Made by a program: the position numbers and the translations under genes | Notes under the pieces: generated by a model | Seen by the model: only the letters and a program-made list of their open reading frames with translations | Told to the model about the DNA's origin: nothing | Database searches by the model: none | In this document: positions 21,163 to 34,385 of the stretch, one piece after another | How positions within the stretch are numbered: position 1 is the first letter of the stretch | Layout: the number at the start of each line of letters is the position of its first letter | Source: Smithella sp. | GTDB lineage: Bacteria > Desulfobacterota > Syntrophia > Syntrophales > Smithellaceae | Assembly (NCBI GenBank): GCA_049517435.1 | Contig: JBEKRZ010000014.1 | Coordinates: 7,443-71,442, forward strand | DNA length: 64,000 nt | Direction: 5' to 3'

Positions 21163-21447
21163 TTATTTATTTTTGAAATCTTCAATGCTGCCCACTTTCT
21201 TAAATGTATCAACTGTTGGACTAACGTCTGGTTTAGCAGTTGCCGCGATAACTGCCTTGCCATAATTGTTCATCTCATGCTTTCCAGTATCCTTTTTCGG
21301 CATCGCGTCAACATGACAATCCATACACTTGATCTTGGCATCAGGGTACGCCTCCTTATAAATCTTTATCTCTTTCATATTCGCCTGCGCCGTAGCCATC
21401 CAAAACATAAGTCCCAAGCCGATAAATAAGATCATTCCTTTTTTCAT
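21163..21447 (-). CDS. Small exported monoheme cytochrome c
   Basis: Signal peptide ending AQA, single CMDCH, GGAG RBS. Confidence 0.7.
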   Translation of the reverse strand: MKKGMILFIGLGLMFWMATAQANMKEIKIYKEAYPDAKIKCMDCHVDAMPKKDTGKHEMNNYGKAVIAATAKPDVSPTVDTFKKVGSIEDFKNK

Positions 21448-21606
21448 TATTCTTCTCCTTGTTTTTTGAAAAGATGTTGCTTTTTGATTGCTGAATTATA
21501 AGCTCTTTGGTCTTGTCTGTCAAGGCAATCGGTGTCAGGGCGGATTTAGTAACAATGCCAAACGGTGATCATATTCCCACTCCTGTTTCTGTGAAGCTTA
21601 ATATAT

Positions 21607-22293
21607 TTACTTTGCAAAGACCTCGACCTTCGCCTTTTTGTTGATCTCGCCAATCCAGGCATCCGCGGTCATCCCCTTTTCCTGCGTTCCTTTGGCGATT
21701 AGTTTGGAAATAAGGATATCTTTTTCTATCCTCTTTTCGAAATTGGCCTGTGTCAAGGCGTGATTTTTCAGAAAGGCCTCAAAATCCTTATCTGAAAAAT
21801 TCATGCCTTGCTTGATAGCGGCGATCCGCTCAGCAATCTCCTGAGGAGTCACAGTGATCTTTTCCTTGACCGCTTCAATGATCAGTATTTTTTCCTGGAT
21901 TATTTTACTCAGTATCTGCATTCTCATATTCGCCGTGGCCGCTTTACGCTCTGGAGTGTTAGAATCCAGCTGACCGCTTTGCCCGGACATTTTTTTATAG
22001 AGGTCGAGTTTCTGATCCACTTCCGCGATTAATATCTTTTCCCCGTTGACAGTGGCGGCCGTTGAAAATCCCCTCATAGGATTAGGCAGCAGGCCTGTAT
22101 AAATCAGCAAGGCCACGCCTCCCAAAATCACCAGCAAAATGACAAGAAGCGCATATATCTTTTTACTACCCGGCTTCTTCTCTTTAGGAGGGATGACACT
22201 TTCATCGTCTTTCACTTCCCTGCCACATGTTCCGCAGACCGCCACTCCGTTTGCCAAGGCGTTACCGCATTGAGGACATTCCAGATTTTCCAT
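21607..22293 (-). CDS. Zinc-ribbon + TM + SurA N-terminal domain protein
   Basis: CPQCG...CGTCG ribbon, TM helix, AATVNGEKI...LSKIIQEKILIIEA...ITVTPQEI SurA-N pattern; GAGGT RBS before ATG 22293. Confidence 0.75.
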   Translation of the reverse strand: MENLECPQCGNALANGVAVCGTCGREVKDDESVIPPKEKKPGSKKIYALLVILLVILGGVALLIYTGLLPNPMRGFSTAATVNGEKILIAEVDQKLDLYKKMSGQSGQLDSNTPERKAATANMRMQILSKIIQEKILIIEAVKEKITVTPQEIAERIAAIKQGMNFSDKDFEAFLKNHALTQANFEKRIEKDILISKLIAKGTQEKGMTADAWIGEINKKAKVEVFAK

Positions 22294-22398
22294 TTCTTTT
22301 ACCTCACTTTGTATTTTTACAAACTCACTTTTTTTATGCCATAAGGAACCTGTAAAGTAAATGTAAAATGACAATAAAGAGCTCATCGCCTTTGGGCT

Positions 22399-23247
22399 TT
22401 AGGAGATGCCGCCATAGCTGTGGAGACCTGAGAGGATCAGGTTCACACCGAGATAGCAGAAGAGAGTGGCGGCAAAACCAATGATGGAGAGGATTGCCGC
22501 CCTCTTGCCCCGCCAGCCGCGGGTGATCCTTGCATGCAGATAAGCCGCATAAATAAGCCAGACTATTAGCGACCATGTTTCCTTCGGATCCCAGCTCCAG
22601 TATGTCCCCCACGCCACATTTGCCCAGAAGGCGCCAGTTACAATGCCTATGGTTAAAAGCGGAAATCCGATTGCGATGGTCTTATAGCCGATCTCGTCGA
22701 GCGCGGTAGAGGAGGGAAATGAATTCCAGAACGACTCGATGGGCTTGGGGGAGCGCTTCTCCGATCCTATCTTGAAAAAATAGAGGATGCTGACGCCGAA
22801 AGAGACGGCAAAGGCAGCATATCCGACAAAACAGCTCATTACATGGAAAATGAGCCAATTGCTCTTCAGAGCCGGCACCAACGGCTGAATATCATTTGGA
22901 TTCAATGAAGCATAGGCCATGATGAGAAAAGGGAAAGGGGCGACGAAAGCGCCCACCGTCCGAATATTGAACTTTCTCTCCAAGATAAGATAGATCAGGG
23001 CGATCGTCCAGGCGAAAAAGACCAATGATTCATAAAGATTCGTCATGGGCGCACGCCCTATCCCCATTTGGTAGGATTCGTACCATCTCATGCCGATCGC
23101 TGCCGTTTCGACAATGACGCCGCCGAGTAGGGAGAAGCTCGCCACCTTCCCCAGCATCTCAGACCGGAACGCCAGATAAGAGATATAAAGCACCATAGCG
23201 AAAAAATATATAAATGTAGCAATGCCGAATAATAAAGAATTGGTCAT
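22399..23247 (-). CDS. ccsA: Cytochrome c biogenesis System II heme-handling protein (CcsA/ResC)
   Basis: WWD domain WGTYWSWDPKETW, conserved His (IFHV, YLH, GLHSY), multiple TMs. Confidence 0.93.
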   Translation of the reverse strand: MTNSLLFGIATFIYFFAMVLYISYLAFRSEMLGKVASFSLLGGVIVETAAIGMRWYESYQMGIGRAPMTNLYESLVFFAWTIALIYLILERKFNIRTVGAFVAPFPFLIMAYASLNPNDIQPLVPALKSNWLIFHVMSCFVGYAAFAVSFGVSILYFFKIGSEKRSPKPIESFWNSFPSSTALDEIGYKTIAIGFPLLTIGIVTGAFWANVAWGTYWSWDPKETWSLIVWLIYAAYLHARITRGWRGKRAAILSIIGFAATLFCYLGVNLILSGLHSYGGIS

Positions 23248-24644
23248 TAAGAAATCTCCTTCAAGTTCTGAATTATCTGTTCCATCTCTCTGGCAAAGGC
23301 GTCGCGGTTTTTGTTTGCCGTTCCGCCGATCTTCAATTCACTCTTCCCTTTTTTATCGGTTCTCAGGGAGATCCATATCTTTTTGTGTGACACGAAAAAA
23401 GCGATCATAATGCCCGCAATCAGCAGCATACTGCCCAACCACACCAGAATCTCTCCCGGATCATTGTTGACCTGAAGTCCGGTATATTTTTTCATTTTCA
23501 AGTCCTTCACCTGGAAATAGTAAGCACCGCCGCGATGTCGATCATATTCGGGATGATCAATAAGGAGCCACAACTCCACGGGTGCCCCTTTAGCCGGGTA
23601 GATGTTGACGCCGATTGCCCGGCCACCTTCCACTCCGTCAGGCAGATGAAAATGTTCCTGATAATCGGCCACCTCCACTTTATCAGTCTCACCGAGAATA
23701 TCAACCTTCCGGTCGAAGGGCGTTGTCATCGTTCCCTTCAGGGAGCCATCTTTGTTCACTACGTCGATCGCCACCTGATCGGGTAGTCCTCCATAGCTGG
23801 ACTGGTAAAAGGTAACCCCTTCGAAAGTCAAGGGATCGTTCACCCGGATTGTTTTTCGGATCACTTCTTTGCCGTTCTGAAAAATTGAGAGATCACTGCG
23901 ATAATCCATCGGGGCTCCGTTGGAATAGAATTCGGCGTGAAACGTATTGCATTTTATCTGAAAATCCAGCTTCTGAATATTTCCGACTCTGGTTTCCAAC
24001 TGCGAAATAGTCTCCCCTTCGAAAATGTTAACATATCCTTTGTAACCGAAAAAAGATCCGCTTATGGCGCCGAGAAAAACCATCAGAATGCTCAGATGGG
24101 TCATAAAGAAAGCCAGGCGGCTATATTTTCCTTTTTCAAAGAAATAATGACGCTCGCCGTCCTCCATCGCGGTTACCACTGGTTTACCGGGAAAGTTCTT
24201 CCCGGCCAACTCCACCATTTTCCTTTCTACGATATCCAGTTGTAGGACATACCGGATCGTTGTAATATTCTGTAAAGATTTTGAAAGTTTTTCGTCAAGA
24301 ATGATGTTATTTTTTCTCATCCCGGCCATGATTCCCCGGTAGCGGTCCATCGTGCAAGCGGTGATGTTCAGGGCTAGCAGCGACAGGCAAGCGACGAACC
24401 ACCAACTATGATACATGTCGAAAAGACCGAGCTTCAAAAACAAGGCAACGGTCCCCGGTTGATAAACCCGGTAATATTCTTGCAGAGGTTTATTTTGTTC
24501 AATCAAAGTTCCAACAATCGAGAATACGGAAAGGATAAGCAAAAGGATTATAACGAGCTTCAGGGATGTCAGAAAATTCCAGAGTTGTGAGATCCAATCG
24601 TTTCCTTTATCTTTTGCCGTCCCTGCCGGCTGGTCAGCAGACAT
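23247..24644 (-). CDS. resB: Cytochrome c biogenesis protein ResB (CcsB/Ccs1)
   Basis: GTLIEQ, DMYHSWWF, THLSIL, IRVNDPL...FYQSSY, DPG motifs. Confidence 0.92.
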   Translation of the reverse strand: MSADQPAGTAKDKGNDWISQLWNFLTSLKLVIILLLILSVFSIVGTLIEQNKPLQEYYRVYQPGTVALFLKLGLFDMYHSWWFVACLSLLALNITACTMDRYRGIMAGMRKNNIILDEKLSKSLQNITTIRYVLQLDIVERKMVELAGKNFPGKPVVTAMEDGERHYFFEKGKYSRLAFFMTHLSILMVFLGAISGSFFGYKGYVNIFEGETISQLETRVGNIQKLDFQIKCNTFHAEFYSNGAPMDYRSDLSIFQNGKEVIRKTIRVNDPLTFEGVTFYQSSYGGLPDQVAIDVVNKDGSLKGTMTTPFDRKVDILGETDKVEVADYQEHFHLPDGVEGGRAIGVNIYPAKGAPVELWLLIDHPEYDRHRGGAYYFQVKDLKMKKYTGLQVNNDPGEILVWLGSMLLIAGIMIAFFVSHKKIWISLRTDKKGKSELKIGGTANKNRDAFAREMEQIIQNLKEIS

Positions 24645-24688
24645 AAAATATTTCCCTTCTCCAGATGATTAATTTCAACAATCTTAAG

Positions 24689-26743
24689 CTACTTTTCTTT
24701 TTTCACAGCGGGGGCTGTCAACAGAGCTTCCACCTTTTGGACATCTCTCTGTACTTGATTAAGAATCGCCATGGCCAGGTCTGGATTGTGAACGCCATTG
24801 GCACTGACTACAAATTTATAAGTATTCCGTGCCTGATTAAGAAGTTTTGCGGCCTCATCAACATCCCGCTTCATTTTGCGGGAGTCGTCCAATTTCCGGC
24901 CAGTCTTTTCAAGCGAATCATAAGTATTCTTTTGCTTCGCCATGATTTCCTGCTTCCATTTGTCGAGAATTTTCACGTGGGCTTCGTCATGGCAGACAAC
25001 GCATGTTGTGGAGATGTTCTTATATGTCTGCTTTTGGGAAAGGTCGTGACAATTGACACACTCAACCTGTCCGGCCTTCACATTTGGCTTTGCTTCCGGT
25101 AATTTTATCGGCAGATTATTGGCAGTAAAGAGCGCAGACTGTTTTTGATGACAGCGCACGCATTGGGTATTTTTCGGGCTGTGGTGACAAGCCATGCAAC
25201 CTTCTTTGGTAATGCTGACCTTTTTATGCTTTTCCGCCGAATGGCAGGTCGTACAACCAAGGCCAAACTCAAAGGCATGGCGTGTGTGCGGCAGTTTGAT
25301 CCCCTGAAAGGAGATCACGTTAGGAAGCTTCACCCCGGCCTTATCGTGGCAGAGTTGGGCGCAATAGCCTCCCCTGATCGGACTTTTTTCGGGAAGGGAG
25401 GGTGCTATCTTCCCGATCGTCCGGAAGAGACTGTTCAGGTCTCTGTCCGCTACCTGGATGAGCTCCGCCGCATAGAAGGGATTATGAACCCCTTTCCCGA
25501 CCTTCACGAAATCGGCATTGTATCTGGCGTCTTCATAAAGTTTTCGGGCCGCCTGAAGTTTTCCTTCGGTTTTGCCCGATTTTTCCAGAACCTGGCGGGC
25601 CGCGTTTAATTTGGGCTCAATATCCCTCTGGATAATATCAAAGGTTTCTTTCCAATCCGTGAGCATTCCTTTGTATTGGTTTCCGTGGCAGTGCGTGCAG
25701 GCCTTTTCCGCAGCCACGAAAGTTCGACCACTTCTCCCGCCGCCCATCTCTGCGCCTTTCGGCTGGATATGGCAGGCCAGACAGTCCACGCGGAAAATGA
25801 ACATGTGACTTGGGGTGGTCGGAACTCCTTTGCCTCTCTCCCCCATGAACATCTCTTTCGGCGCGCTGTGAGTTTCCGCATGGCAGGCATTGCAGCTGTA
25901 TTCCATAAAACGCACTTTAGATGTCTTCATGCTGTGTTTAATTTCATCATGACATCGCGTACAGTTCACTTTTCGTTTGGCGACATGGGTATTGTGCATG
26001 AACGTTACATCATCGTACCTTGCCAGCCTCTCCGGTTCATTGTGACAGTCGTAACATTTTTCCTTATGAGCTAATCCTTCTCCCTGGATGACGTCGAGAT
26101 GACAATTTTCACAGGCGACATGACGTGACCCGGCAAAATCATTATGGTTAAAGGTGAGCCCCTGGAACTGAATATCTTCCTTCGGGTATTCATGGCAGGT
26201 GATGCAATTCCCCAGCGGGAGCATCCCCTTTTGTTCCGGCTTGTGCCGGAAGTGGCAAAGGAAGCAAGTGCTGTCTGTCACCTCAACATGCGTACCCACA
26301 ACAATCTGGGAGTGACAGCTCGTACAGCGCAACTGTTTGCCCCGCCGTAAATCTCCTAAATGAAATTTGTGATCGAAGCGTATTCCCTTTTTATAGATGA
26401 GTTTATTCGACATTAACAAATTCCTGGAATGGCATCCCGCTCGCAGGCAACTGGCATCATCGATCTGGGCGTAGGGCTTGGAGATGTACTTTTTCCTGGT
26501 CACATATTGGACCACGGAATTGATCGCTTGAAACTTAGCCCACCAAAGCTTTTTGGGGTCGGGAGAATAATGGCACAACACGCAGGAGACATCTTTGTGT
26601 TTTGAAGTCTTCCAAGCGTCGTAATAGGGTTTCATAATGTGGCAACTGTTACAAAATCCGGAAGTGGAGGTGTAATAAGCCAGATAGCCTATAACGGCCA
26701 ACCCCAAAACCAAGCAAATGACCAGCACCCGTATCCTTTTCAA
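24689..26743 (-). CDS. Membrane-anchored multiheme cytochrome c (16 CxxCH + CX4CH + CX3CH), NapC/NirT-like N-terminus
   Basis: 16 canonical CxxCH counted, plus CLRAGCH and CAQLCH; N-terminal TM helix. Confidence 0.9.
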   Translation of the reverse strand: MKRIRVLVICLVLGLAVIGYLAYYTSTSGFCNSCHIMKPYYDAWKTSKHKDVSCVLCHYSPDPKKLWWAKFQAINSVVQYVTRKKYISKPYAQIDDASCLRAGCHSRNLLMSNKLIYKKGIRFDHKFHLGDLRRGKQLRCTSCHSQIVVGTHVEVTDSTCFLCHFRHKPEQKGMLPLGNCITCHEYPKEDIQFQGLTFNHNDFAGSRHVACENCHLDVIQGEGLAHKEKCYDCHNEPERLARYDDVTFMHNTHVAKRKVNCTRCHDEIKHSMKTSKVRFMEYSCNACHAETHSAPKEMFMGERGKGVPTTPSHMFIFRVDCLACHIQPKGAEMGGGRSGRTFVAAEKACTHCHGNQYKGMLTDWKETFDIIQRDIEPKLNAARQVLEKSGKTEGKLQAARKLYEDARYNADFVKVGKGVHNPFYAAELIQVADRDLNSLFRTIGKIAPSLPEKSPIRGGYCAQLCHDKAGVKLPNVISFQGIKLPHTRHAFEFGLGCTTCHSAEKHKKVSITKEGCMACHHSPKNTQCVRCHQKQSALFTANNLPIKLPEAKPNVKAGQVECVNCHDLSQKQTYKNISTTCVVCHDEAHVKILDKWKQEIMAKQKNTYDSLEKTGRKLDDSRKMKRDVDEAAKLLNQARNTYKFVVSANGVHNPDLAMAILNQVQRDVQKVEALLTAPAVKKEK

Positions 26744-26781
26744 TGTACCTCTTGATCAGTTCTGTATTTTCAAAGCTTTTC

Positions 26782-28032
26782 CTATGGCTTTATTCGCTCG
26801 TATTGAGGCTTGATGGCGGCCTTGTCATATTTCGAGTGGACAAAATCACCCCGCAGGATGGGGACGGCGATCCTCATGAACATGGTAAAGATAAAGAGCC
26901 CAGAAGCCCATATCCCCAGAGAAATGGCTATTTCATTGATATTCGGCAGGTATTCGTAAATCTCGCCGAGAGGATCGGGAACAAAGCCGGGAACGATCAA
27001 ACCGAGCCCCTTTTCAATCCACACGCCCAAGATGATGAGTAGCGAACCGATATTGAGTGTGATCAGATTATTCCTTGTTCCGGGAATCAGGAAGATCAAA
27101 AAAGCTGCTATATTCATCGCCATGGCCGACCATATCCAGGGAACCAGGGCATGATGACCGTGCACCCCCTGGAAGAGATATTTCATAGGCTCCAGATGAA
27201 TAGTACCTGTATAATACTCCTTGAAGATTTCGGCTCCCAGCAGGAACAAATTGATGAACATGGCGTAGGCCATCAACTCGGCAATCTTGAAAAGCGCCTC
27301 GTTCTTGATTTTCAGCCCCATCGTCTTTCTCAAAATCTGGAAAATAATTAACGCTATGGCCGGCCCGGAACAAAAAGCGCTGGCCAGAAAACGAGGCGCC
27401 AGAATGGAGGCATTCCAGAAGGGTCGGGCGGCAAGCCCGTTGTAGAGAAATGCGGTCACGGTATGAATACCCACTGCCCAGGGAATGGAAAGTAAAACCA
27501 GTGGAATGACGAATTTCTTTACCGGTTCCTTGCGGAAGTACATCTTGATCAGAATATATATCGGAACGATGGCGTTCAGCACCATATAGACGTTCAGAAC
27601 GATCACATCCCAGGCCATAAGTGAACTGGGAAAGGAAAGAATTCCGATAAACGGTATAACATGCCAAAACCGGTCAGGTCTGCCAAGATCGGCCATAATA
27701 AACATCAAGGCCATGATGATGGCCGAAGCGGCAAGAAGCTCTCCCAGAACAACGATTTCTTTGATGGGATCGAAGTGATAGATGTACGCCGGAATAACGA
27801 GGAGCACGGCCGCGGCGGCGACGCCGACCAAATAAGTAAAGTTACCGATATAGAGACCCCAGGAGACCTGGTCTGTCATATTGGTTACAATCAATCCAGC
27901 ATCCAGTTGTTTCGCGTAGAAGCTAATCCCCACACCAATAATAGCCAGTAAAAAAGCACACCAGAAGTAGTAGACCTTCGTCCCGACAAAAACCATTCGG
28001 ACCGTTCTTTTAAAAAATATCCAAGCTTCCAT
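26782..28032 (-). CDS. nrfD: NrfD/PsrC-family quinol oxidoreductase membrane subunit (CbcU/HmcC-like)
   Basis: SWGLYIGNF, DLGRPDRFW, SLMAWD, HTVTAFL; about 10 TMs. Confidence 0.9.
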   Translation of the reverse strand: MEAWIFFKRTVRMVFVGTKVYYFWCAFLLAIIGVGISFYAKQLDAGLIVTNMTDQVSWGLYIGNFTYLVGVAAAAVLLVIPAYIYHFDPIKEIVVLGELLAASAIIMALMFIMADLGRPDRFWHVIPFIGILSFPSSLMAWDVIVLNVYMVLNAIVPIYILIKMYFRKEPVKKFVIPLVLLSIPWAVGIHTVTAFLYNGLAARPFWNASILAPRFLASAFCSGPAIALIIFQILRKTMGLKIKNEALFKIAELMAYAMFINLFLLGAEIFKEYYTGTIHLEPMKYLFQGVHGHHALVPWIWSAMAMNIAAFLIFLIPGTRNNLITLNIGSLLIILGVWIEKGLGLIVPGFVPDPLGEIYEYLPNINEIAISLGIWASGLFIFTMFMRIAVPILRGDFVHSKYDKAAIKPQYERIKP

Positions 28033-28048: not shown

Positions 28049-28951
28049 CTATGCGGAAAAGAAATAATAAAATTTGGGTTCCGCGTTCAAGTCTTCCTTT
28101 AATCGAAAGACCCTTTTATTTTCAATAAGATATCTTATTTCGCTGTTCGGATCGAGCAGGTTCCCGAATTTTCTGGTTCCCGTGGGACAGGCCTCCACGC
28201 AGGCGGGGTAACGCCCATTCCGGACCCGTTGGACACAAAACGTGCATTTTTCCACAACATTTTTCATACGGGGCCGGTTCCCCAGATAATGGACATCCGT
28301 ATTCAACTCTTTCACGGGAATATTGGGCTCGCCCCAGTTAAAAACCCGTCCCTTGTAAGGGCAGGCAGCAATACAATAGCGGCAGCCTATGCACCAATTG
28401 TAATCGACCACCACAATGCCATCCGGTTCCTTCCACGTCGCCTTGACTGGGCATACACGCACGCAGGGTGGATTTTCGCAATGCTGGCATTGAACCGGCA
28501 TGTACATGAACCCCGGCTCCGGCACTGTTTCCGGATTATAGTAGTGTTCGGCATTTTCGAGGTTGATCATACTCCCATTTTTCAATCGGACGACCCTGAT
28601 CCATTGGAGTTGCGGGTTGACCCGGGACTGATTGTTTTCTTTCACACAGGCGTAAACGCACCTTCGGCACCCGATACACCGCGACAGATCAAGGCCATAG
28701 CCCCAGAGAATCCCGGCACCGGCCGGCTTGGTGCTGATTTGAAATTTTTTCCCGTATTTTTTCAGGTACATCTCTTCCAATCGCCGGATAACCTGTTTCT
28801 TCTCTGTCTCAGACATTTCCCGGAAGTTCTTCTGAAGGAACTCTTCCACCTTGTCTTTAGTGCACGCCGAGCTTCCCAGGTAAAGCGCGGCCACGGTGCC
28901 CATGGACATCATCTTTATAAATTCTCTTCTGGTATGCGATCTATCTTCCAT
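28049..28951 (-). CDS. Tat-exported 4Fe-4S dicluster protein (NrfC/CbcT/HmcB-like)
   Basis: TRREFIK twin-arginine motif; CIGCRRCVYAC, CQHCENPPC, CIGCRYCIAACP, CTFC...CVEACP. Confidence 0.92.
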   Translation of the reverse strand: MEDRSHTRREFIKMMSMGTVAALYLGSSACTKDKVEEFLQKNFREMSETEKKQVIRRLEEMYLKKYGKKFQISTKPAGAGILWGYGLDLSRCIGCRRCVYACVKENNQSRVNPQLQWIRVVRLKNGSMINLENAEHYYNPETVPEPGFMYMPVQCQHCENPPCVRVCPVKATWKEPDGIVVVDYNWCIGCRYCIAACPYKGRVFNWGEPNIPVKELNTDVHYLGNRPRMKNVVEKCTFCVQRVRNGRYPACVEACPTGTRKFGNLLDPNSEIRYLIENKRVFRLKEDLNAEPKFYYFFSA

Positions 28952-29438
28952 ATGTCCGTTCCGGTTTGGTTGGTGGGGGTTCCGGTTTCAGGGGTTTGAA
29001 TTTAGGGTCATGGGGATTGTGACAATTCACACAAAGGAAATAAACCCTTTTCCCCCCTTTGAAATATCCGATCCTTTTGCCGTGGATGCCGACTTTCCAG
29101 TCGCGATAGATATTGCCGTGGCACTGTCCGCAGAGCAGGTAGGACTCCGTAAACTTGATGGTGTCCCCATTGGCAAGCTTCAATTTATCCCTGTCGGCTG
29201 GATTGTGACAATCAAGACACCAGCGGTCTTTTTCAGCATGGTGCAGTTTGATGTTGGTATGCTCATCCTTGAGTTCTCTCTTTTTTGCATTGACCTCCAG
29301 CCCCGCATGACAGTTGCTGCAGGGAAATATCCCCTCCGATAATGGGGGCATTAAAACAGGATATTCATCGTGGTGCAATGCGAACGCGGGCACGCCAAAT
29401 GCAATAATTGCGAATAAACATAGGAATCTTATTTTCAT
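28941..29438 (-). CDS. Periplasmic tetraheme cytochrome c (CbcS-like)
   Basis: Signal peptide; CSNCH, CLDCH, CGQCH, CVNCH. Confidence 0.88.
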   Translation of the reverse strand: MKIRFLCLFAIIAFGVPAFALHHDEYPVLMPPLSEGIFPCSNCHAGLEVNAKKRELKDEHTNIKLHHAEKDRWCLDCHNPADRDKLKLANGDTIKFTESYLLCGQCHGNIYRDWKVGIHGKRIGYFKGGKRVYFLCVNCHNPHDPKFKPLKPEPPPTKPERTYGR

Positions 29439-29588
29439 AGACTTTGCTCGTTATCCTCATTTACCCTGCCTGTATCCTTAACTGCGCTTTTTCAACAATC
29501 CGCTACTGCGGATACCGGAAGGGGAAATAGCCAACCTAATAAAGCAATCTCAAATTATTAAATTTCTTTTACCCGGCAAAGATTAAAA

Positions 29589-29617
29589 ATCTTAAGTGAT
29601 AATTTTTATAGAGTCAA
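29589..29617 (-). promoter_or_regulatory. Sigma70-type promoter candidate for the tetraheme-to-maturation operon
   Basis: Minus strand TTGACT-N17-TAAGAT, 150 bp upstream of the start at 29438. Confidence 0.45.
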
Positions 29618-29728
29618 GAAGAGAAAAATATGAGGAGAAAAATATGTTCTTATTTTGTTCATTTGTGAACCAGCAATACCGTGGCATTTTCAACCATCGC
29701 CCGCTTCTTTTCCGTAAAGACTGTCCAT

Positions 29729-29758
29729 AAAAAAATCCCCGCCTGTTTCCAGGCGGGG
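29729..29758 (-). terminator. Rho-independent terminator after the omcB-like gene
   Basis: 9-bp stem CCCCGCCTG/CAGGCGGGG with 4-nt loop followed by a T-run on the minus strand. Confidence 0.8.
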
Positions 29759-29797
29759 CCGGTTAGATCAGCAGATCAAAAACTGCCGTGGTTAAGA

Positions 29798-32179
29798 TTA
29801 TGGACGCTCCGGAGAGCTCCATCCGCCGGTTGTGTGACTCCATCCGATCAGGTAAAGCATGGCTTCCGTGGTGCCGGGCGCCAAGGTGGTCAGCGTGCTG
29901 TCCGTGTACGCCGTTGCTCCCTTGCCGAAGAGGCCGTAGACAGGGGAGCCCACAGTGCCCGACAAAGCCAGAGCAGTGGCGCCCACCGACCCGTTCATCA
30001 GACCATCGTCAAGATAGTCGATGGTATCATAGAGTAACCTGCGGGAGTATGTGAGGGCATGGGCGTATGCTCCCGGCTCTCTCTTTAAGAATACAATATT
30101 GGAAACAGCTCCCATCACTCTGGCTTTGTTGTACCCTGCTCCCAGGATAGTCATAGCCGCCGTCCAGTCCGCTGCTGCCGCTTCTGTCAACGTCGGTAGC
30201 GCACTGGTTTTGTATGCCCTCACAAAATCAGGCAAATCTCCTCCCTCACTAGTAATTGTGATGCCTGTATTCTTATCATTAAAAACTTTAATTGCAAGCG
30301 AAAGAGCAGCCTGATAGGCTTCGGACTGTGGCCCCAAGAAGTATTGATTGAAGTCCGCGATCATCGTGATAGCATGACCTCCTTTCGAGGTGTGGCAATT
30401 ATTACAGACAGTGGTGATAGTCTTTTGATCAATAGTTAGGCTATGGTTGCCGGGAGTACGATGGCAGGCTACGCAAGGACCGTTGGCCGTCAGATTTGTC
30501 TGGGATGCAGTGATACCATGATCGCCAATTATTGTCGGCGTCCCCAGTTTCCGGTGGGTACTGGTAATGGTTCCACCATCCTGATCAGATAAAAGAGAAG
30601 TGTCAATTGTTACACCGGGAAGAGCACCCGGAGCAAACGTAATGAAGCCCATTTTGATATACATGGTTGCGGCCGCCTGCAGATAGTGGGTTCGTTGATA
30701 GTTCGTGCTTGTGTCGGTGATAGCACCGGGGTCCTTCTCCCGGGAATCATGACATGCAATACAAATATTGGATGCGGCAATATCGGGGTACCGCAGCTTA
30801 CCGTAATTGAGCGTGTATCCCGGCGGATTCCAGCCCAGATCTGTGGTGTAATTGGTTGTTGGATTGGCATCTTTGAGCGTGCGCAATATACCTGCGCCGG
30901 GATTCGTATGGCAACCATAGCATTTAAGAGGTCCTGCGGCAATTGTACCCGGATTGGTGGTTAAATTTTCAAAGAAGTAAGAGAATCCTTCCGTCGTATG
31001 ACATCGTCCACAGATCCCCGAATTGTGACCGCCGAAAGGACCGCCGGCAACTGTGGCCGCCATAACGGCGTCCACCTGCGCTGTGCTTTTAACAACGAAT
31101 GGTGCAGCCGCGGCATATTTCGCTGTAAGCAATCCGCGGGCATGACCAGACTGCGCCCAATCGGTATAAATTGTTGCCTTTGCAGGATCGTAGGACACAG
31201 ATGCCGGATCGTTATTACTATTTGTCATGGCATTATGGCCGTGACAATCGTAACAGGGATTCGGATTGATGGATCCGTTTGGCAATGTTAACCGTATCCC
31301 ATAGCCTGTTATGTTCCCTGCTACCAGGGCTGCCGGATCCTGGTAATGAGTGGTGCCTATTATCCGGTACCACGAGGTCTCATGATGACCGACTAAAGCG
31401 GTACCCGATGCCACCGTACCGGAACCCATAAGAAGACCGGTTGGGTTTGTATAGCCGTGGCATTGCGTACAGAGACGGAACTGGTCATTGAGGGGACTTG
31501 CTAAACTGCTCGTAACGGAACCAACCGTCGTACTGGGATTCCAGGTTGCATCCACACGAAGTTTTTTGGAATCATGCGTCATATGGCAGGTATCGCACTG
31601 GATCGGCCTGAGATCAGTTACTGTGCCCGGCGCGTTTACTCCGGCCGCCATGACTGTCCCGTCGCCGGTGAAATTGGACATAGCGGACAAGACGGCACCC
31701 ACGTGGGTGTGGCAGCGATTGCACGGTGCTGCTGCTTCTATTTGGACGCCAAGGTGTTTGGAGGTGGAATAGGCTGTACACAATTGATAGTTAGTGGCAA
31801 GAATCACCGTGGACAGGGCCGATATGTCCCCCCCGGTAATGGCTACACCGTTGTTGTGGCAAACGGCGCACTGCACATAATTGGGGTCCGGATAGGGAAT
31901 CGGGCCTACACCATTGTGCGATCCGCCATTTCCGTGGCAGGCCTGGCAGCCTACTGAATTAAGAGCGTGGACCGACGTGTCGTATGTCGTGACGATCGAA
32001 TAACCCGTCAGAGTTTCAAGCGTTGTACTGTGGCACGTCGTGCAGGCCGTGTTGTCAACAGCAGACACCACACCTGAGTCGTCACCATCCCTGTTCGACG
32101 AACCACAGCCGCTTATAAGCAGCAACGACAAGACCAACGCCATAATCGAAGCGAAACCAACATATCTTTTTTTGTTCAT
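29798..32179 (-). CDS. omcB: 12-heme outer-membrane lipoprotein cytochrome c, OmcB/OmcC-like
   Basis: Lipobox LISGC; 12 CxxCH counted; N-terminus ACTTCHS..ETLTG.S...GCQACHG.G..HNGVGPIP matches the OmcB pattern as I recall it. Confidence 0.85.
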   Translation of the reverse strand: MNKKRYVGFASIMALVLSLLLISGCGSSNRDGDDSGVVSAVDNTACTTCHSTTLETLTGYSIVTTYDTSVHALNSVGCQACHGNGGSHNGVGPIPYPDPNYVQCAVCHNNGVAITGGDISALSTVILATNYQLCTAYSTSKHLGVQIEAAAPCNRCHTHVGAVLSAMSNFTGDGTVMAAGVNAPGTVTDLRPIQCDTCHMTHDSKKLRVDATWNPSTTVGSVTSSLASPLNDQFRLCTQCHGYTNPTGLLMGSGTVASGTALVGHHETSWYRIIGTTHYQDPAALVAGNITGYGIRLTLPNGSINPNPCYDCHGHNAMTNSNNDPASVSYDPAKATIYTDWAQSGHARGLLTAKYAAAAPFVVKSTAQVDAVMAATVAGGPFGGHNSGICGRCHTTEGFSYFFENLTTNPGTIAAGPLKCYGCHTNPGAGILRTLKDANPTTNYTTDLGWNPPGYTLNYGKLRYPDIAASNICIACHDSREKDPGAITDTSTNYQRTHYLQAAATMYIKMGFITFAPGALPGVTIDTSLLSDQDGGTITSTHRKLGTPTIIGDHGITASQTNLTANGPCVACHRTPGNHSLTIDQKTITTVCNNCHTSKGGHAITMIADFNQYFLGPQSEAYQAALSLAIKVFNDKNTGITITSEGGDLPDFVRAYKTSALPTLTEAAAADWTAAMTILGAGYNKARVMGAVSNIVFLKREPGAYAHALTYSRRLLYDTIDYLDDGLMNGSVGATALALSGTVGSPVYGLFGKGATAYTDSTLTTLAPGTTEAMLYLIGWSHTTGGWSSPERP

Positions 32180-32205
32180 GGCCGATTCTCCTCACCAGTA
32201 TTAAA

Positions 32206-32901
32206 TTAATACGTTATATGACATTTTCTACAGGTTCTTCCTTTACTGTCATTTTTATACTTGTTCATGATGGATTTCCAATTTCGGGGATGGGGATTCA
32301 CCTTCCCACTGCTGTGGCACTGGATACAGACATCCGCATCCGGATGACAAGATTCGCAGGACTGCAGGTTCCTTCGCGCTTCGGACGCATGATCCGAATT
32401 CCAGTTATATATCTGCGAGGTGCCGGCCGGCCGGTGTGATTTTATTTTCATGCTGCCCTTATTCCGTATCTTGGTGTGACAGTCCTGACAGAAACTCGAC
32501 TCGTGGCAGCGATAGCAATTCTGGGGGTTATCCTTAGCCTTTATAGAATGGATAGAGATAAAATCGGAGCGATGCGTCTTGGGCATATACTCCCCCTTGG
32601 TCGACAGACTTTTCTTCAAATCAGGTTCAATGCCTCCGCCTTTGTGGCAATCTAAACAGAAGGATTGTTGATGGCAATCCGCACAATTGTTCCCCGCCTT
32701 TTGGGCCAGCAACCGATGTTCTTTCACAAAGAAATCACCGTGATTGGCTATCACGCCAACGCTGCTGTGACAAACCGGGCAGTCACTAAGTGCTACATCC
32801 TTGAATTCTCTGTGGTCGGTCCTGGCAAAGGAGAGACAGACGACCAAGAGAAGTAAGGCTGTGGACAACAGTATAATTTTAAATGCCTTATTATTTATCA
32901 T
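32206..32901 (-). CDS. omaB: Periplasmic 8-heme cytochrome c, OmaB-like
   Basis: Signal peptide; 8 CxxCH counted; located between the porin and the OmcB-like gene. Confidence 0.8.
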   Translation of the reverse strand: MINNKAFKIILLSTALLLLVVCLSFARTDHREFKDVALSDCPVCHSSVGVIANHGDFFVKEHRLLAQKAGNNCADCHQQSFCLDCHKGGGIEPDLKKSLSTKGEYMPKTHRSDFISIHSIKAKDNPQNCYRCHESSFCQDCHTKIRNKGSMKIKSHRPAGTSQIYNWNSDHASEARRNLQSCESCHPDADVCIQCHSSGKVNPHPRNWKSIMNKYKNDSKGRTCRKCHITY

Positions 32902-32918
32902 GGTCTCCCCTCATAAGT

Positions 32919-34385
32919 TCAATAATTGATATTAATGGCCACAAAGCCTTTATAACTGTTGTTATAGTTGAAATTGATATCGTCCTCAACCTTCATGCTT
33001 ACAGTTATGATCTTACTGAATTCGTAATTGACACCTGCCCAGTATTTTTCCGCATTTCCATCGCGGGAGTCATACCTTCTGAAATCATCATAATCGATTC
33101 CGGCCATAAGAGCCATCTTGGAGATCTTATACTCACCATAAAGTCTGATGCCGCTGAGACCGTCGGTATAACCGCTCCTTATTTCATAGGTCGCATTAAT
33201 GGTTAGATCTTTGATCGGACGGGCAAGAAAACCAACGTCATAGACATTGGCAATCGCACTATCGCTGTTACCGATATTACCACTAAAATCTTCCCGGGCG
33301 TATTTAACGCTGACCCGGTACTTGCTGGTCAATTGATACTCGGCGGAAATGCTCTGTTCCTTGTACTGGTCGACGGCAAAAACACTGTAAAGGGAGGAAG
33401 TGTCAAACGTAGGATAACTTTCATAATACTCGCCGCGAAGGGTTAAATCTTGGAGAGGGGTGACTTTTGCGCCAAAAAGCATCTCATTGAACGATTCTGA
33501 AATAGTGTCATATTTCAACCGCGCGTAAAAATTAACCATACCACTGATAGGGGTGGTGGAAAAATCCAGACCAACGTTTTCGCGCGCTAACAGGCTGTCG
33601 CCATCGGCCTCACAATATTTCCTTCCATAACTCACTTCGACATGCGTATTTTTTATTGTATCCAGATAAACGCTCATTCCGATGAGGCCATCCCCTCGAG
33701 TGCCCGTCTCTGTCTTATCTGCAAATATCACATTTCTCCCGCCGAAAAAAGTAATCCCCATCGGACCCAGATTTTTCAGATCCATGTGGATACCATCTAT
33801 GGTTCCGGAAACCGCCGCTTCATTTACAAAGGTTCTGCCGGCTCTTAAATCGAGATGTTCATTGAAGGCATCCCGGTAATCCAGGTAAAAATAATACAAC
33901 CTTCCTTGGAAATCTTCATCATGATCCGTCCAGAGTTCTTTGATAGCCCTTCCGTATGCGTAAAAGTTGATCTTCCCTTCCTTGTCCAGATTGGTGACAT
34001 TCATCCGCAAATACTGGGCAAAATCCTGGATGCTCTTCTCCCTATCGACCGCCAACAAATCCTGATACCAAAGATATTGCGTGGAACTCGTCAGCTTTAC
34101 CTCCGCCCGCTGAGGACTTCGAGGCGGGTTCTCCTGCTCCGGCTTTTTCACCTCCTGCTGAAGGCTTCTAGGCGTCTTATCTTGTTCCGGTTCTTTTATC
34201 TTTTGTTGAGGACTTTGAGGTGAGTTATCATCAAGGGCGTCTTCTGCGTCGGGTGCATTAAATCCCCTTAGAGTAAGCTGCGTCTTCTTAATTGGTTCCT
34301 GTGCCATAATGGGTATGGCCACAAATAGCATACACGTAAAAAATACTACTGACAATGAACCAATAAATATCCTACTTTTCATCAT
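32919..34385 (-). CDS. ombB: Outer-membrane beta-barrel porin-like protein, OmbB-like
   Basis: Signal peptide, alternating amphipathic beta-strand pattern rich in Y/F/G, C-terminal aromatic (AININY), no CxxCH; assignment relies on synteny. Confidence 0.72.
   Translation of the reverse strand: MMKSRIFIGSLSVVFFTCMLFVAIPIMAQEPIKKTQLTLRGFNAPDAEDALDDNSPQSPQQKIKEPEQDKTPRSLQQEVKKPEQENPPRSPQRAEVKLTSSTQYLWYQDLLAVDREKSIQDFAQYLRMNVTNLDKEGKINFYAYGRAIKELWTDHDEDFQGRLYYFYLDYRDAFNEHLDLRAGRTFVNEAAVSGTIDGIHMDLKNLGPMGITFFGGRNVIFADKTETGTRGDGLIGMSVYLDTIKNTHVEVSYGRKYCEADGDSLLARENVGLDFSTTPISGMVNFYARLKYDTISESFNEMLFGAKVTPLQDLTLRGEYYESYPTFDTSSLYSVFAVDQYKEQSISAEYQLTSKYRVSVKYAREDFSGNIGNSDSAIANVYDVGFLARPIKDLTINATYEIRSGYTDGLSGIRLYGEYKISKMALMAGIDYDDFRRYDSRDGNAEKYWAGVNYEFSKIITVSMKVEDDINFNYNNSYKGFVAININY

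What the first reader, a model, noticed from the sequence alone, without database searches (positions are those of the whole stretch)
21163..34385. Self-contained quinone-to-surface electron conduit island in a syntroph-like genome
Seen: 11 co-oriented genes (porin, 8-heme, 12-heme lipoprotein, tetraheme, Tat Fe-S, NrfD, 16+2-heme anchored cytochrome, ResB, CcsA, SurA-N, monoheme) with 41 canonical CxxCH, an internal terminator and a second promoter. Established: porin-cytochrome complexes move electrons across the outer membrane in Geobacter; NrfD/Fe-S modules exchange electrons with menaquinone. Inference: one locus encodes the inner-membrane, periplasmic and outer-membrane steps plus their own maturation machinery. 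Cultured Syntrophus/Smithella are generally described as H2/formate-transferring and poor in multiheme cytochromes, so this may be an undescribed route for cytochrome-based DIET or metal/humic respiration in a fatty-acid oxidiser.
Basis: partly seen in the sequence, partly recalled or inferred. Interest (0 to 1): 0.9.

Follow-up and report, generated by a model that had tools for sequence, protein, structure and literature searches.

The report
Self-contained electron-export island in Smithella
An uncultured peat Smithella, a fatty-acid-oxidising partner of methanogens, keeps all of its multiheme cytochromes in one 14-kb gene island. The island looks like a complete Geobacter-style wire from the membrane quinone pool to the cell surface, is transcribed in wetlands, and stands where sister species carry a different (MtrAB-type) wire.

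Summary
Eleven co-oriented minus-strand genes at 21163-34385 carry 41 CxxCH motifs plus two conserved variant motifs, 43 hemes in all.

- **Outer part:** a Geobacter-type porin-cytochrome trio. The porin models as a 22-strand barrel, followed by an 8-heme periplasmic protein and a 12-heme lipoprotein.
- **Inner part:** a tetraheme / Tat Fe-S / NrfD (DsrP-like) quinol module, a membrane-anchored NrfH-type 18-heme protein, ResB/CcsB heme attachment, a SurA_N chaperone and a monoheme.
- **Uniqueness in the genome:** these are the only multiheme cytochromes and the only ResB in the 3.1-Mb, 98%-complete genome.
- **Not an artefact:** both flanks are 91-97% identical to a sister Smithella, and independent peat assemblies span the right junction.
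- **Transcribed:** wetland metatranscriptomes contain the genes.
- **Distribution:** the island is absent from the other sampled species of the genus. About a third of those carry an MtrAB-type locus with an unrelated ResB instead. Near-copies occur in three metagenome contigs and, rearranged, in a "Syntrophaceae CG2_30_58_14" genus. The outer cytochrome is the most variable gene.

Its premise that Smithella is cytochrome-poor is only partly right. Direction, electron acceptor and quinone supply remain inferred.

The parts
34386..34898 (-). AT-rich upstream region of the porin operon, with promoter-like sites and no regulator gene
   Evidence: 87% nt identity to the upstream region in locus L099. 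Sigma-70-like sites at 34915-34888 and 34774-34745. Sequence read.
32919..34385 (-). Porin-like outer-membrane protein (488 aa) with a Sec signal peptide and a disordered Pro/Gln-rich linker at residues 22-88
   Evidence: AF2 model pLDDT 79.8 with 22 beta-strands. Foldseek matches only generic outer-membrane barrels. 34-40% identity to the porin of Geobacterales pcc loci in the same gene order.
32206..32901 (-). Periplasmic octaheme cytochrome (231 aa), OmaB-like
   Evidence: 8 CxxCH and a signal peptide. 47-57% identity to octaheme genes at the same position in Geobacterales and Nitrospirota loci. The tree places a Syntrophales-type clade as sister to the Geobacterales clade.
29798..32179 (-). 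12-heme outer-surface lipoprotein cytochrome (793 aa), OmcB-like; the most variable gene of the island
   Evidence: 12 CxxCH and lipobox LISGC, with C25 invariant. Best named relatives are Geoanaerobacter 56%, Geobacteraceae 53% and Geomonas 47%. Only 72% / 64% identical in L099 / L115, where neighbouring genes are 90-97%. Tree.
29737..29758 (-). Intrinsic-terminator-like hairpin between the two halves of the island
   Evidence: 9-bp stem with 8 G-C pairs, followed by ATTTTTTTAT. RNA contigs partly read across it.
28941..29438 (-). Periplasmic tetraheme cytochrome (165 aa), NrfB-like partner of the Fe-S/NrfD pair
   Evidence: 4 CxxCH and a signal peptide. Paired_CXXCH and weak NrfB hits. Overlaps the next gene by 11 nt.
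28049..28951 (-). Tat-exported ferredoxin subunit with four Cys clusters (300 aa), NrfC/DsrO/ActB-like
   Evidence: TRREFIK motif and 16 Cys in four cluster motifs. DsrO model 195.6 bits against a cut-off of 200. Best solved relative is ACIII ActB, 6F0K_B, E 8.6e-34.
26782..28032 (-). NrfD-family integral membrane quinone-interacting subunit (416 aa, about 10 hydrophobic segments)
   Evidence: PF03916 E 8e-38. DsrP equivalog 409.6 bits, above the cut-off of 350. Best solved relative is ACIII ActC, 6F0K_C. Hydropathy.
24689..26743 (-). Membrane-anchored NrfH/NapC-type cytochrome extended to 18 hemes (684 aa)
   Evidence: One N-terminal TM helix. NrfH model E 2e-12 and PDB 2J7A_C. 16 CxxCH + CX4CH + CX3CH conserved. 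The family has more than 1100 members, all unnamed or generic.
23247..24644 (-). ResB (CcsA partner), system II cytochrome c maturation; the only copy in the genome
   Evidence: PF05140 E 1.5e-91. Own-genome search finds only this copy. 79-82% identical to genus g55 but 28.5% to the native ResB of sister genome G006.
22399..23247 (-). CcsB heme lyase/channel subunit of system II
   Evidence: TIGR03144 302 bits, above the cut-off of 187.6. 88-89% identical to g55 and 53% to the G006 native copy.
21607..22386 (-). Membrane-anchored SurA_N/PpiD-like periplasmic chaperone with an N-terminal zinc ribbon
   Evidence: SurA_N_3 E 6.6e-23 and zinc-ribbon hits. One TM at residues 77-95. Conserved directly after CcsB in g55, L099 and L100.
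21163..21447 (-). Small secreted monoheme cytochrome (94 aa) with its own consensus promoter at 21523-21495
   Evidence: One CxxCH and a signal peptide. Promoter 12/12. A 94-aa gene stands at the same position in L099.
20525..20980 (-). Truncated sirC-like (precorrin-2 dehydrogenase) ORF at the island's left edge; not part of the shared island
   Evidence: NAD_binding_7 plus only the start of Sirohm_synth_M. Homology with L099 ends at 20986.
20372..20503 (+). Remnant of an IS3-type transposase C-terminus marking the left junction
   Evidence: Translation ...KEAKTLIEKWRIEYNTFMPHSSLNYRPPAPNAYLN*. Metagenome assembly graphs branch at 20492-20704.

Best explanation
The island is a complete, modular extracellular-electron-transfer (EET) system of the Geobacter porin-cytochrome (Pcc) kind, carried by an uncultured peat/wetland Smithella. 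Shown: the gene content, protein features, conservation, genomic setting and in-situ transcription. Inferred: the electron path. Reducing equivalents from beta-oxidation enter the membrane (methyl)menaquinone pool. Quinol is oxidised at the periplasmic face by either or both of two modules: the NrfD/Tat-Fe-S/tetraheme complex (NrfBCD- or ACIII-like) and the NrfH-anchored 18-heme protein. The latter is a CymA/NrfH-type quinol dehydrogenase fused to a long heme chain that could bridge much of the periplasm. Electrons then pass to the octaheme OmaB-like protein, which sits in the 22-strand porin, and on to the surface 12-heme OmcB-like lipoprotein. From there they reach an external acceptor: peat humic or particulate organic matter, Fe(III), or a partner cell. 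ResB/CcsB attach the 43 hemes, and the SurA_N/PpiD-like protein probably chaperones the secreted parts. The locus is a mosaic that moves within Syntrophales. In this lineage it stands in for the MtrAB-type conduit and its unrelated ResB/CcsB found in the sister species, and the outer cytochrome is exchanged like a cassette.
For: Gene content and motifs. Porin modelled as a 22-strand barrel, within the 18-22 range given for Pcc porins in PMC4245776. The same porin / 8-heme / 12-heme order occurs in dozens of Geobacterales, Desulfuromonadales and Nitrospirota loci. The Fe-S and NrfD subunits are closest to quinol-oxidising ACIII ActB/ActC among solved structures, and the N-terminus of the 18-heme protein matches NrfH. 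All multiheme ORFs and the only ResB of the genome are here. Distribution: the 12-heme gene has no close homologue in 24 other species of the genus or in 16 other families (one 28% match only), and the 18-heme gene is in 6 of 251 genomes of the order. Island proteins are 72-92% identical to genus g55, while neighbouring g55 genes are 29-41% identical (one 70%) or have no match. ResB is 28.5% identical to the native copy of sister genome G006, whose locus has an MtrA-like decaheme and an MtrB_PioB porin; MtrB is in 9 of 30 sampled species of the genus and 0 times in this genome. An IS remnant marks the left edge. The same 11-gene order occurs in L099 at 90% nt identity and the same chromosomal site, and partly in L115 and L105. 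The Omc genes of Syntrophales loci fall in at least 3 clades. Both flanks are 91-97% identical to G006, and independent peat assemblies span the porin-glyoxalase junction. Wetland metatranscriptome contigs at 97% identity or more cover the porin, Oma, tetraheme, Fe-S, NrfD, 18-heme and ResB genes, while the flanking genes are nearly uncovered. Context: in Syntrophus, ETF electrons enter methylmenaquinone (E0' -156 mV) via EMO, and a Smithella EMO homologue is listed (bioRxiv 10.64898/2026.08.18.745454).
Against: There is no biochemical or physiological evidence for this organism, and direction and acceptor are inferred. Quinone biosynthesis is unresolved in this genome: no MqnA/D and only sub-threshold MenA-like hits, in line with PMC13685792. 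Homology to the experimentally characterised G. sulfurreducens PCA proteins themselves was not tested directly. Composition is not clearly foreign: GC 47.5% against 43.9 +/- 2.8, and tetranucleotide distance in the top 14%. No integrase, tRNA or flanking repeats were found, so recent transfer is not shown. The RNA evidence comes from assembled contigs of strains about 2-3% divergent; depth is only semi-quantitative, and the 12-heme gene is matched only at 80-90% identity near its ends. The AF2 model of the 18-heme protein is poor (pLDDT 68.7), so a periplasm-spanning shape is conjecture.
Confidence: 0.7

Rival explanations
1. Same hardware, opposite or two-way use. The conduit takes electrons up from reduced humics, Fe(II), a cathode-like mineral or a partner cell, and feeds the quinone pool. 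This would be electrotrophy or Fe(II)/humic oxidation rather than export.
For: Porin-cytochrome conduits are not intrinsically directional: the MtrAB/PioAB/MtoAB relatives found in sister Smithella belong to a family used for both Fe(III) reduction and Fe(II) oxidation (established knowledge; MtrB_PioB hit). NrfD and NrfH modules are reversible in principle. Nothing in the sequence fixes the direction.
Against: The host lineage is a fatty-acid/propionate oxidiser whose bottleneck is disposal of quinol-level electrons. The genus survey reports no terminal reductase for nitrate, nitrite or sulfate, and the island holds no catalytic reductase.
Confidence: 0.1
2. The inner half (tetraheme/Fe-S/NrfD plus the 18-heme protein) is a periplasmic respiratory or detoxifying system for a soluble compound such as nitrite, hydroxylamine, sulfite or polysulfide. 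On this reading the 18-heme protein is an enzyme, and its adjacency to the Pcc trio is incidental.
For: The NrfH and NrfBCD modules are best known from nitrite ammonification. The weak Foldseek hits for the 18-heme model are to NrfA and octaheme nitrite or sulfite reductases (E above 0.03). A terminator separates the two halves. More distant homologues of the 18-heme protein occur without Pcc or Ccs neighbours.
Against: There is no CxxCK or other catalytic-heme signature and no molybdopterin or sirohaem subunit in the island. The trio and the inner module stay linked in G000, L099, L115, L100 and g55 despite rearrangement. The octaheme and 12-heme proteins would have no other electron donor, because the genome has no other multiheme cytochrome. 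RNA contigs cross the terminator.
Confidence: 0.07
3. Origin rival: the locus is ancestral in Smithellaceae/Syntrophales and inherited vertically. Its patchy distribution would reflect repeated loss and local rearrangement rather than horizontal transfer and conduit replacement.
For: Composition is not foreign. The island sits at the same site in a second Smithella lineage at about 90% nt identity, similar to flank divergence. No integrase or attachment repeats were found. A core of tetraheme / Fe-S / NrfD / ResB / CcsB recurs across the family.
Against: Two deeply different ResB types (28.5% identity) occur in sister species. Island genes are 72-92% identical to another family's genus, while adjacent genes there are 29-41% identical (one 70%) or absent. 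L100 mixes the G006-type quinol module with the island-type ResB/CcsB. Omc genes attached to similar porin/Oma pairs fall in different clades nested among Geobacterales. An IS remnant lies at the border.
Confidence: 0.2
4. Assembly or binning artefact: a Geobacter-like or other contig fragment wrongly joined to Smithella DNA.
For: The genome is a 61-contig MAG. De Bruijn graphs branch at 20492-20704 near the left edge.
Against: A single 18.9-kb contig in run X1 covers 20675-37500 with no mismatch, and a contig from another sample (X2) spans porin, glyoxalase and ADH. Both flanks are 91-97% identical to sister genome G006. L099 independently links the island to a gene 94.6% identical to a G006 gene. 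The branch point coincides with an IS remnant.
Confidence: 0.02

Closest known systems
Geobacter sulfurreducens porin-cytochrome complex OmbB-OmaB-OmcB (Pcc; PMC4282303, PMC4245776, PMC4589669)
   Same: Same gene order: porin, then periplasmic 8-heme, then 12-heme outer lipoprotein. Similar protein sizes. The barrel strand number (22) lies within the reported 18-22. There is clear sequence homology to the trios of cultured Geobacterales: Citrifermentans bremense, Geobacter argillaceus, Oryzomonas and Geomonas (34-57%).
   Different: No OrfR/OrfS TetR-type regulator. The porin has an extra disordered Pro/Gln-rich N-terminal linker. The trio is physically joined to inner-membrane quinol modules, system II maturation genes and a chaperone. 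The host is a syntroph with no other multiheme cytochromes, whereas Geobacter has about 70.
NrfBCD menaquinol dehydrogenase of E. coli-type nitrite ammonification / alternative complex III ActABC / DsrJOP part of DsrMKJOP
   Same: Periplasmic small multiheme cytochrome, Tat-exported four-cluster ferredoxin and NrfD-family membrane subunit. The NrfD subunit passes the NCBIfam DsrP equivalog cut-off, and the best solved relatives are ActB/ActC.
   Different: No NrfA and no DsrMK or DsrAB (dsrAB is reported absent from the genus). No molybdopterin-like ActB1 domain and no ActD/E/F. The cytochrome has four hemes, not five (NrfB, ActA) or three (DsrJ).
NapC/NirT/NrfH/CymA quinol dehydrogenases and Geobacter ImcH
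   Same: N-terminal membrane anchor followed by an NrfH-like tetraheme domain. Presumed quinol oxidation with delivery of electrons to periplasmic cytochromes. Like Geobacter, there is more than one inner-membrane quinol oxidase.
   Different: Extended to 18 hemes with two helical bundles that carry conserved GVHNP motifs. It belongs to a large uncharacterised family (more than 1100 proteins, for example in Methylomirabilota at 45-47%) annotated only as 'cytochrome c3 family' or 'NapC/NirT family'.
MtrAB/PioAB/MtoAB-type conduit locus of sister Smithella species (G006 and 8 other sampled species)
   Same: Same overall logic and partly the same layout: outer-membrane conduit plus tetraheme / Fe-S / NrfD / monoheme / ResB / CcsB in one locus.
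   Different: The conduit there is an MtrA-like decaheme plus a 700-aa MtrB_PioB barrel, with no outer cytochrome seen in the locus. Its Fe-S protein and ResB are only 35% and 28.5% identical to the island's, and it sits at another chromosomal place. This genome has none of it.

Membership tests
Geobacter-type porin-cytochrome (Pcc) gene cluster | [quoted passage not shown] | tested here: met
   Order is porin (32919-34385), 8-heme (32206-32901), 12-heme (29798-32179), co-oriented with gaps of 17 and 26 nt.
Geobacter-type porin-cytochrome (Pcc) gene cluster | Porin-like protein with 18-22 trans-outer-membrane strands, smaller than MtrB | tested here: met
   The AF2 model has 22 strands and the barrel is mostly at pLDDT 90 or more. 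The range is quoted from PMC4245776. This is a prediction only.
Geobacter-type porin-cytochrome (Pcc) gene cluster | Periplasmic partner with 8 hemes and an outer partner that is a 12-heme lipoprotein (OmaB/OmcB pattern) | tested here: met
   8 and 12 CxxCH. Signal peptide on one, lipobox LISGC on the other, with invariant C25.
Geobacter-type porin-cytochrome (Pcc) gene cluster | Sequence homology to Geobacter Pcc proteins | tested here: inconclusive
   Homology to syntenic trios of cultured and uncultured Geobacterales is clear: porin 34-40%, Oma 47-57%, Omc up to 56%. The characterised G. sulfurreducens PCA sequences themselves were not available for a direct comparison.
Geobacter-type porin-cytochrome (Pcc) gene cluster | The complex transfers electrons across the outer membrane | not testable with these tools
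   Needs proteoliposome or genetic assays.
DsrMKJOP complex (DsrP/DsrO) | NrfD-family subunit scoring as a DsrP equivalog, with an adjacent DsrO ferredoxin | tested here: met
   DsrP 409.6 bits against a cut-off of 350. DsrO 195.6 bits, just under its cut-off of 200.
DsrMKJOP complex (DsrP/DsrO) | Context of DsrM, DsrK, a triheme DsrJ and dissimilatory sulfite reductase | tested here: not met
   [quoted passage not shown] It should therefore not be filed as Dsr.
Alternative complex III | ActA pentaheme, ActB with a molybdopterin-like domain plus Fe-S domain, ActC and ActF (NrfD type), ActD, ActE | tested here: not met
   Only the Fe-S domain (matching 6F0K_B residues 798-1022) and one NrfD subunit are present. 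It works like the quinol-oxidising core of ACIII but is not a member.
NapC/NirT/NrfH quinol dehydrogenases | N-terminal membrane helix followed by a tetraheme NrfH-type domain | tested here: met
   TM at residues 4-22. TIGR03153 E 2.3e-12 over residues 6-147 and PF03264. PDB 2J7A_C by sequence and by fold. All scores are below the equivalog cut-off, because this is a long fusion.
System II cytochrome c maturation (ResB/CcsB) | A ResB-family protein and a CcsB/CcsA heme-handling protein encoded together | tested here: met
   PF05140 E 1.5e-91. TIGR03144 302 bits, above the cut-off of 187.6. The two genes overlap by one base at 23247.
Genomic island acquired by horizontal transfer | Patchy distribution, xenologous genes and mobile-element traces | tested here: met
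Genomic island acquired by horizontal transfer | Foreign composition, integrase, tRNA or direct repeats at the borders | tested here: not met
   GC and tetranucleotide values lie within the genome's range (top 9.5% and 14%). No border repeats. No integrase or tRNA was noticed among the ORFs next to the island; no tRNA scan was run.

The most novel reading that the evidence does not exclude
Peat and wetland Smithella are facultative exoelectrogens. A minimal, portable cassette of five or six cytochromes with its own heme-attachment system lets a classical H2/formate syntroph send quinol-level electrons from beta-oxidation straight to humic or particulate organic matter, Fe(III) or a methanogen partner. 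This would bypass the energy-costly reverse redox loop. Such conduits (Pcc-type, MtrAB-type, with NrfH-18-heme or CbcL-like feeders) would be swapped between syntroph lineages as interchangeable modules, with the surface cytochrome tuned to the local acceptor.
Probability: 0.3. Interest if true: 0.8.

Novelty: new variant of a known kind. Interest (0 to 1): 0.6.

Why it matters
Whether classical fatty-acid-oxidising syntrophs can dispose of electrons through cytochromes, rather than only through H2 and formate, is still open. The 2026 Smithellaceae survey explicitly leaves DIET 'unresolved'. In peat, electron flow to organic acceptors competes with methane formation.

This locus gives that question a concrete, small and testable object. 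It is the organism's entire multiheme complement in 14 kb, it is transcribed in wetlands, and it has natural 'swap' controls: sister species with an MtrAB-type conduit or none.

A self-sufficient cassette that carries its own cytochrome maturation genes is also attractive for transplanting EET into other hosts. Finally, the 18-heme NrfH fusion represents a large, uncharacterised family.

Tried and rejected
- **Chimeric contig:** rejected on flank synteny with G006 and contigs from independent samples.
- **Compositional test for foreign origin:** not decisive.
- **Border repeats or att sites:** none found.
- **Clean 'empty site' in the sister genome:** not obtained. Relative to G006 the island lies at a rearrangement junction: the 35 kb at window 160-35065 are absent from the corresponding G006 site, and about 16 kb of them lie on another G006 contig. 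The flanks of G006's MtrAB locus map to the interior of two different G000 contigs.
- **First RNA search, with the 12-heme gene:** found nothing, because that gene is hypervariable. A second search with the 18-heme gene found more than 20 metatranscriptomes.
- **Solved-structure searches:** nothing for the 8-heme and 12-heme proteins.
- **AF2 model of the 18-heme protein:** low confidence, and its fold matches are not significant.
- **Filing the NrfD/Fe-S pair as DsrOP or ACIII:** rejected on context.
- **Heme synthesis:** AhbD-type radical SAM hits are present but below the curated cut-off.
- **Quinone synthesis:** MqnA/D absent and MenA below cut-off, so the quinone supply is unresolved.
- **Peat EET preprint (10.64898/2026.05.27.727921):** it covers Acidobacteriota and Verrucomicrobiota, not Smithella.

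Full report
**1. The observation**

Their translations carry 0/8/12/4/0/0/16/0/0/0/1 CxxCH motifs, 41 in total. The 684-aa protein also has one CX4CH and one CX3CH. In an alignment of 37 homologues all 16 CxxCH are conserved (15 invariant, one nearly so), as are C99/C104/H105 and C461/C465/(H466), so 18 hemes are likely and the island total is 43.

Family scans give:
- a weak Porin_4 hit;
- c7/c3-type multiheme families;
- a Tat-signal (TRREFIK) ferredoxin with four cluster motifs;
- an NrfD protein that passes the NCBIfam DsrP cut-off (409.6 against 350);
- an NrfH/NapC-like N-terminus on the 18-heme protein;
- ResB and CcsB (302 bits against 187.6);
- a SurA_N_3 protein with a zinc ribbon and one membrane helix.

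The 12-heme protein has the lipobox LISGC, and that Cys is invariant in 28 homologues. Hydropathy gives about 10 hydrophobic segments for NrfD and a single N-terminal anchor for the 18-heme protein.

A strong terminator-like hairpin follows the 12-heme gene at 29758-29737. The promoter-like sites behind it are weak (9/12). A perfect consensus promoter precedes the monoheme gene.

**2. It is the genome's whole cytochrome complement**

The window is C14:7443-71442 of a 3.10-Mb, 61-contig genome that is 98.4% complete. A six-frame census finds only four ORFs with two or more CxxCH in the entire genome, and all four are in this island. The only ResB in the genome is the island copy.

**3. The host, and why this is not an artefact**

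The genome search places the genome in the same order as the record titled 'Syntrophaceae bacterium CG2_30_58_14' (G173 equals locus L023). Proteins of the closest same-genus genome, G006, share 90%-identity clusters with NCBI proteins named 'Smithella sp.'. This agrees with earlier notes on other windows of this genome.

Both flanks match G006:
- The right flank (glyoxalase, ADH, TPP enzyme) is 92-97% identical and syntenic.
- The left flank (amidohydrolase, TetR and about 16 kb beyond) is 78-92% identical and collinear with another G006 contig.

In peat metagenomes a single 18.9-kb contig of run X1 covers 20675-37500 without a mismatch. A contig from a different sample (X2) spans porin, glyoxalase and ADH.

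The assembly graph branches only at 20492-20704. That is where I found a remnant of an IS3-type transposase C-terminus (about 20372-20503, plus strand) next to a truncated sirC-like ORF.

**4. Anatomy of the two halves**

*Outer half.* With a 33-sequence alignment the porin models as a 22-strand barrel (pLDDT 79.8), preceded by a disordered Pro/Gln-rich linker. Foldseek finds only generic outer-membrane barrels. The order porin / 8-heme / 12-heme recurs in dozens of loci from Geobacterales, Desulfuromonadales, Nitrospirota and unclassified 'Deltaproteobacteria'. Identities are porin 34-40%, Oma 47-57% and Omc up to 56% (Geoanaerobacter). This matches the Pcc definition of Shi et al., which gives 18-22 strands and the OmaB 8-heme / OmcB 12-heme lipoprotein pattern (PMC4245776).

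*Inner half.* Among solved structures the Fe-S and NrfD proteins are closest to ActB and ActC of alternative complex III (6F0K) and to PsrB/NrfC. With the tetraheme they form an NrfBCD-like quinol:cytochrome module. They are not Dsr: there is no DsrMK, and dsrAB is reported absent from the genus.

The 18-heme protein begins like NrfH. It belongs to a family of more than 1100 proteins, all generically named, including 45-47% relatives in Methylomirabilota. Its AF2 model is poor (pLDDT 68.7).

No catalytic signature is present: no CxxCK and no molybdopterin subunit.

**5. Distribution and evolution**

The island is rare among relatives:
- The 12-heme gene has no close homologue in 24 other species of the genus or in 16 other families of the order (one 28% match only).
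- The 18-heme gene is in 6 of 251 genomes of the order: this one, four genomes of genus g55, and one distant genome.

In g55 the same proteins are 72-92% identical but arranged differently: tetraheme / Fe-S / NrfD, then a second Fe-S/NrfD set, then 18-heme / ResB / CcsB / SurA_N, then about 4 kb, then porin / Oma. Neighbouring g55 genes are only 29-41% identical to this genome (one 70%) or have no counterpart.

ResB as such is common in the family (75 of 91 genomes). However, the native ResB of sister genome G006 is only 28.5% identical to the island's, and CcsB is 53% identical. It belongs to a different locus: an MtrA-like decaheme, a 700-aa MtrB_PioB porin (E 6e-79), then tetraheme / Fe-S / NrfD / monoheme / ResB / CcsB. 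MtrB_PioB occurs in 18 of 91 family genomes and 9 of 30 sampled species of the genus, but not in this genome. The flanks of G006's Mtr locus map to the interior of two different contigs here, so its absence is not an assembly gap between them.

Near-copies exist in metagenomes:
- Contig L099 has the identical 11-gene order at about 90% nt identity from 34898 to 20986.
- L099 continues into a molybdopterin oxidoreductase that is 94.6% identical to the G006 gene next to the amidohydrolase. The island therefore occupies the same chromosomal site in a second Smithella lineage.
- L115 and L105 show the same order in part.
- L100 combines the same trio and island-type ResB/CcsB/SurA_N with the G006-type quinol module, and carries a CbcL-like 19-heme/cytochrome b fusion in place of the 18-heme protein.

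The outer cytochrome is by far the most variable gene: 72% identity in L099 and 64% in L115, against 90-97% for its neighbours. In a FastTree phylogeny the Omc genes attached to Syntrophales-type porin/Oma pairs fall into at least three clades, and the window's clade is sister to a Geobacteraceae clade. The Oma proteins of the window, L099, L100 and L020 form one well-supported clade, sister to the Geobacterales clade.

Composition is unremarkable: GC 47.5% against 43.9 +/- 2.8, and there are no border repeats. I conclude that the locus is modular and horizontally exchanged within Syntrophales. It was acquired before the split of the G000 and L099 lineages, and it functionally replaces the MtrAB-type locus. 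Vertical descent with losses is a weaker alternative.

**6. Expression and habitat**

Near-identical DNA is present in at least 24 peat, wetland and permafrost metagenomes. More than 20 metatranscriptomes hold the 18-heme gene.

Contigs from four wetland RNA runs, at 97% identity or more, cover the porin, Oma, tetraheme, Fe-S, NrfD and 18-heme genes and the 3' end of ResB, at summed depths of 30-60 in X25. The flanking amidohydrolase and glyoxalase/ADH genes are at 0-8.

The 12-heme gene is matched only at 80-90% identity near its ends, as expected for a divergent allele. Some contigs cross the terminator region.

These are assembled contigs from strains about 2-3% divergent, so the evidence shows transcription, not its level.

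**7. Mechanism**

*Inferred path.* Quinol is oxidised at the NrfD/Fe-S/tetraheme complex, at the NrfH-18-heme protein, or at both. Electrons then pass to the octaheme inside the porin, to the surface 12-heme lipoprotein, and finally to an external acceptor. ResB/CcsB and the PpiD-like SurA_N protein build the system.

*Physiological rationale.* In Syntrophus, ETF electrons from beta-oxidation enter methylmenaquinone (E0' -156 mV) through EMO and normally need a pmf-driven reverse loop to reach CO2. A Smithella EMO homologue is listed (bioRxiv 10.64898/2026.08.18.745454). An outward conduit to acceptors more positive than the quinone would remove that cost.

*Caveats.*
- Quinone biosynthesis is unresolved here: no MqnA/D, and MenA-like hits are below cut-off. 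The genus survey is likewise unresolved.
- AhbD-like heme-synthesis genes are present but below cut-off.
- Direction and acceptor are untested.

**8. Relation to the literature**

- The 2026 Smithellaceae comparative study counts multiheme cytochromes (73/71/68% of assA-negative genomes at 3, 6 and 10 or more hemes) and leaves DIET 'unresolved'. The passages I searched describe no locus (PMC13685792).
- Nobu et al. 2020 report expression of multiheme cytochromes in syntrophic fatty-acid-degrading Desulfobacterota at survey level (PMC7382037).
- Shi et al. 2014 list no Syntrophales among Pcc hosts.
- A 2026 peat EET preprint treats Acidobacteriota and Verrucomicrobiota only.
- No paper in the library combines Smithella with MtrB, OmcB, MtoA or FeGenie.

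The components are therefore known kinds. What appears undescribed is the self-contained arrangement, its occurrence in Smithella, the swap of conduit type between sister species, and the cassette-like Omc.

**9. Verdict**

I rate it a new variant of a known kind of system, with interest 0.6.

Noticed in passing
window 18447-18595: A short repeated element with very high depth in metagenomes (177 against about 13) and in metatranscriptomes (over 1000 in X25), with many alternative joins. A 23-nt match joins it to about 34969, upstream of the porin. It probably belongs to the hairpin MITE family that earlier agents described in this genome.
   Followed up: no
window 160-35065 (relative to G006 loci L003/L004): In the sister genome G006 the genes matching C14:1511-7595 are directly followed by glyoxalase/ADH/TPP. 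About 35 kb, including the island, is therefore absent at that site in G006, and about 16 kb of it lies on another G006 contig.
   Followed up: partly
L096 (G006:C7:1702000-1721900), 3582-12071: The sister Smithella carries an MtrA-like decaheme plus an MtrB_PioB porin, joined to tetraheme / Fe-S / NrfD / monoheme / ResB / CcsB. MtrB_PioB is in 9 of 30 sampled species of the genus. An adjacent 668-aa protein has CarboxypepD_reg/SdrD_B repeats. I found no description of an Mtr-type locus in Smithella in the searched papers.
   Followed up: partly
L100 18711-21551: A 934-946-aa fusion of about 19 c-type hemes with a cytochrome b561 (Ni_hydr_CYTB) domain, CbcL-like. It occupies the place of the 18-heme NrfH protein in a related Syntrophales locus. 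A second ResB gene follows.
   Followed up: no
L020 4311-7586 and L023 6305-9668: Related loci have a roughly 480-490-aa protein with one CxxCH, a roughly 460-470-aa protein and a 128-aa protein just upstream of the porin. This may be a heme-sensor two-component system; it was not annotated here. The window's island has no such genes.
   Followed up: no
window 29798-30380 (Omc residues about 600-793): The heme-free C-terminal part of the 12-heme protein holds a block of invariant residues (HALTYSRRLLYDTIDYLDDG and the terminal W..RP) across 28 homologues. Its role is unknown; it could be a docking element.
   Followed up: no
window 45071-50023: A radical SAM gene, followed by a Memo-AMMECR1 fusion (AmmeMemoRadiSam-type set) and a 720-aa spermine-synthase-domain protein.
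   Followed up: no
window 58074-62100: Two HGD-D (2-hydroxyacyl-CoA dehydratase / benzoyl-CoA reductase D-type) genes and a BcrAD/BadFG ATPase gene, typical of ATP-dependent reductase/dehydratase systems of syntrophs.
   Followed up: no
G000 C10:27743-28585, C5:28618-29358 and C5:29680-30678: Only sub-threshold MenA-like prenyltransferases and no futalosine-pathway MqnA/D. One prenyltransferase sits next to a NirJ/Ahb-like radical SAM gene. The quinone biosynthesis route of this Smithella is unclear.
   Followed up: partly
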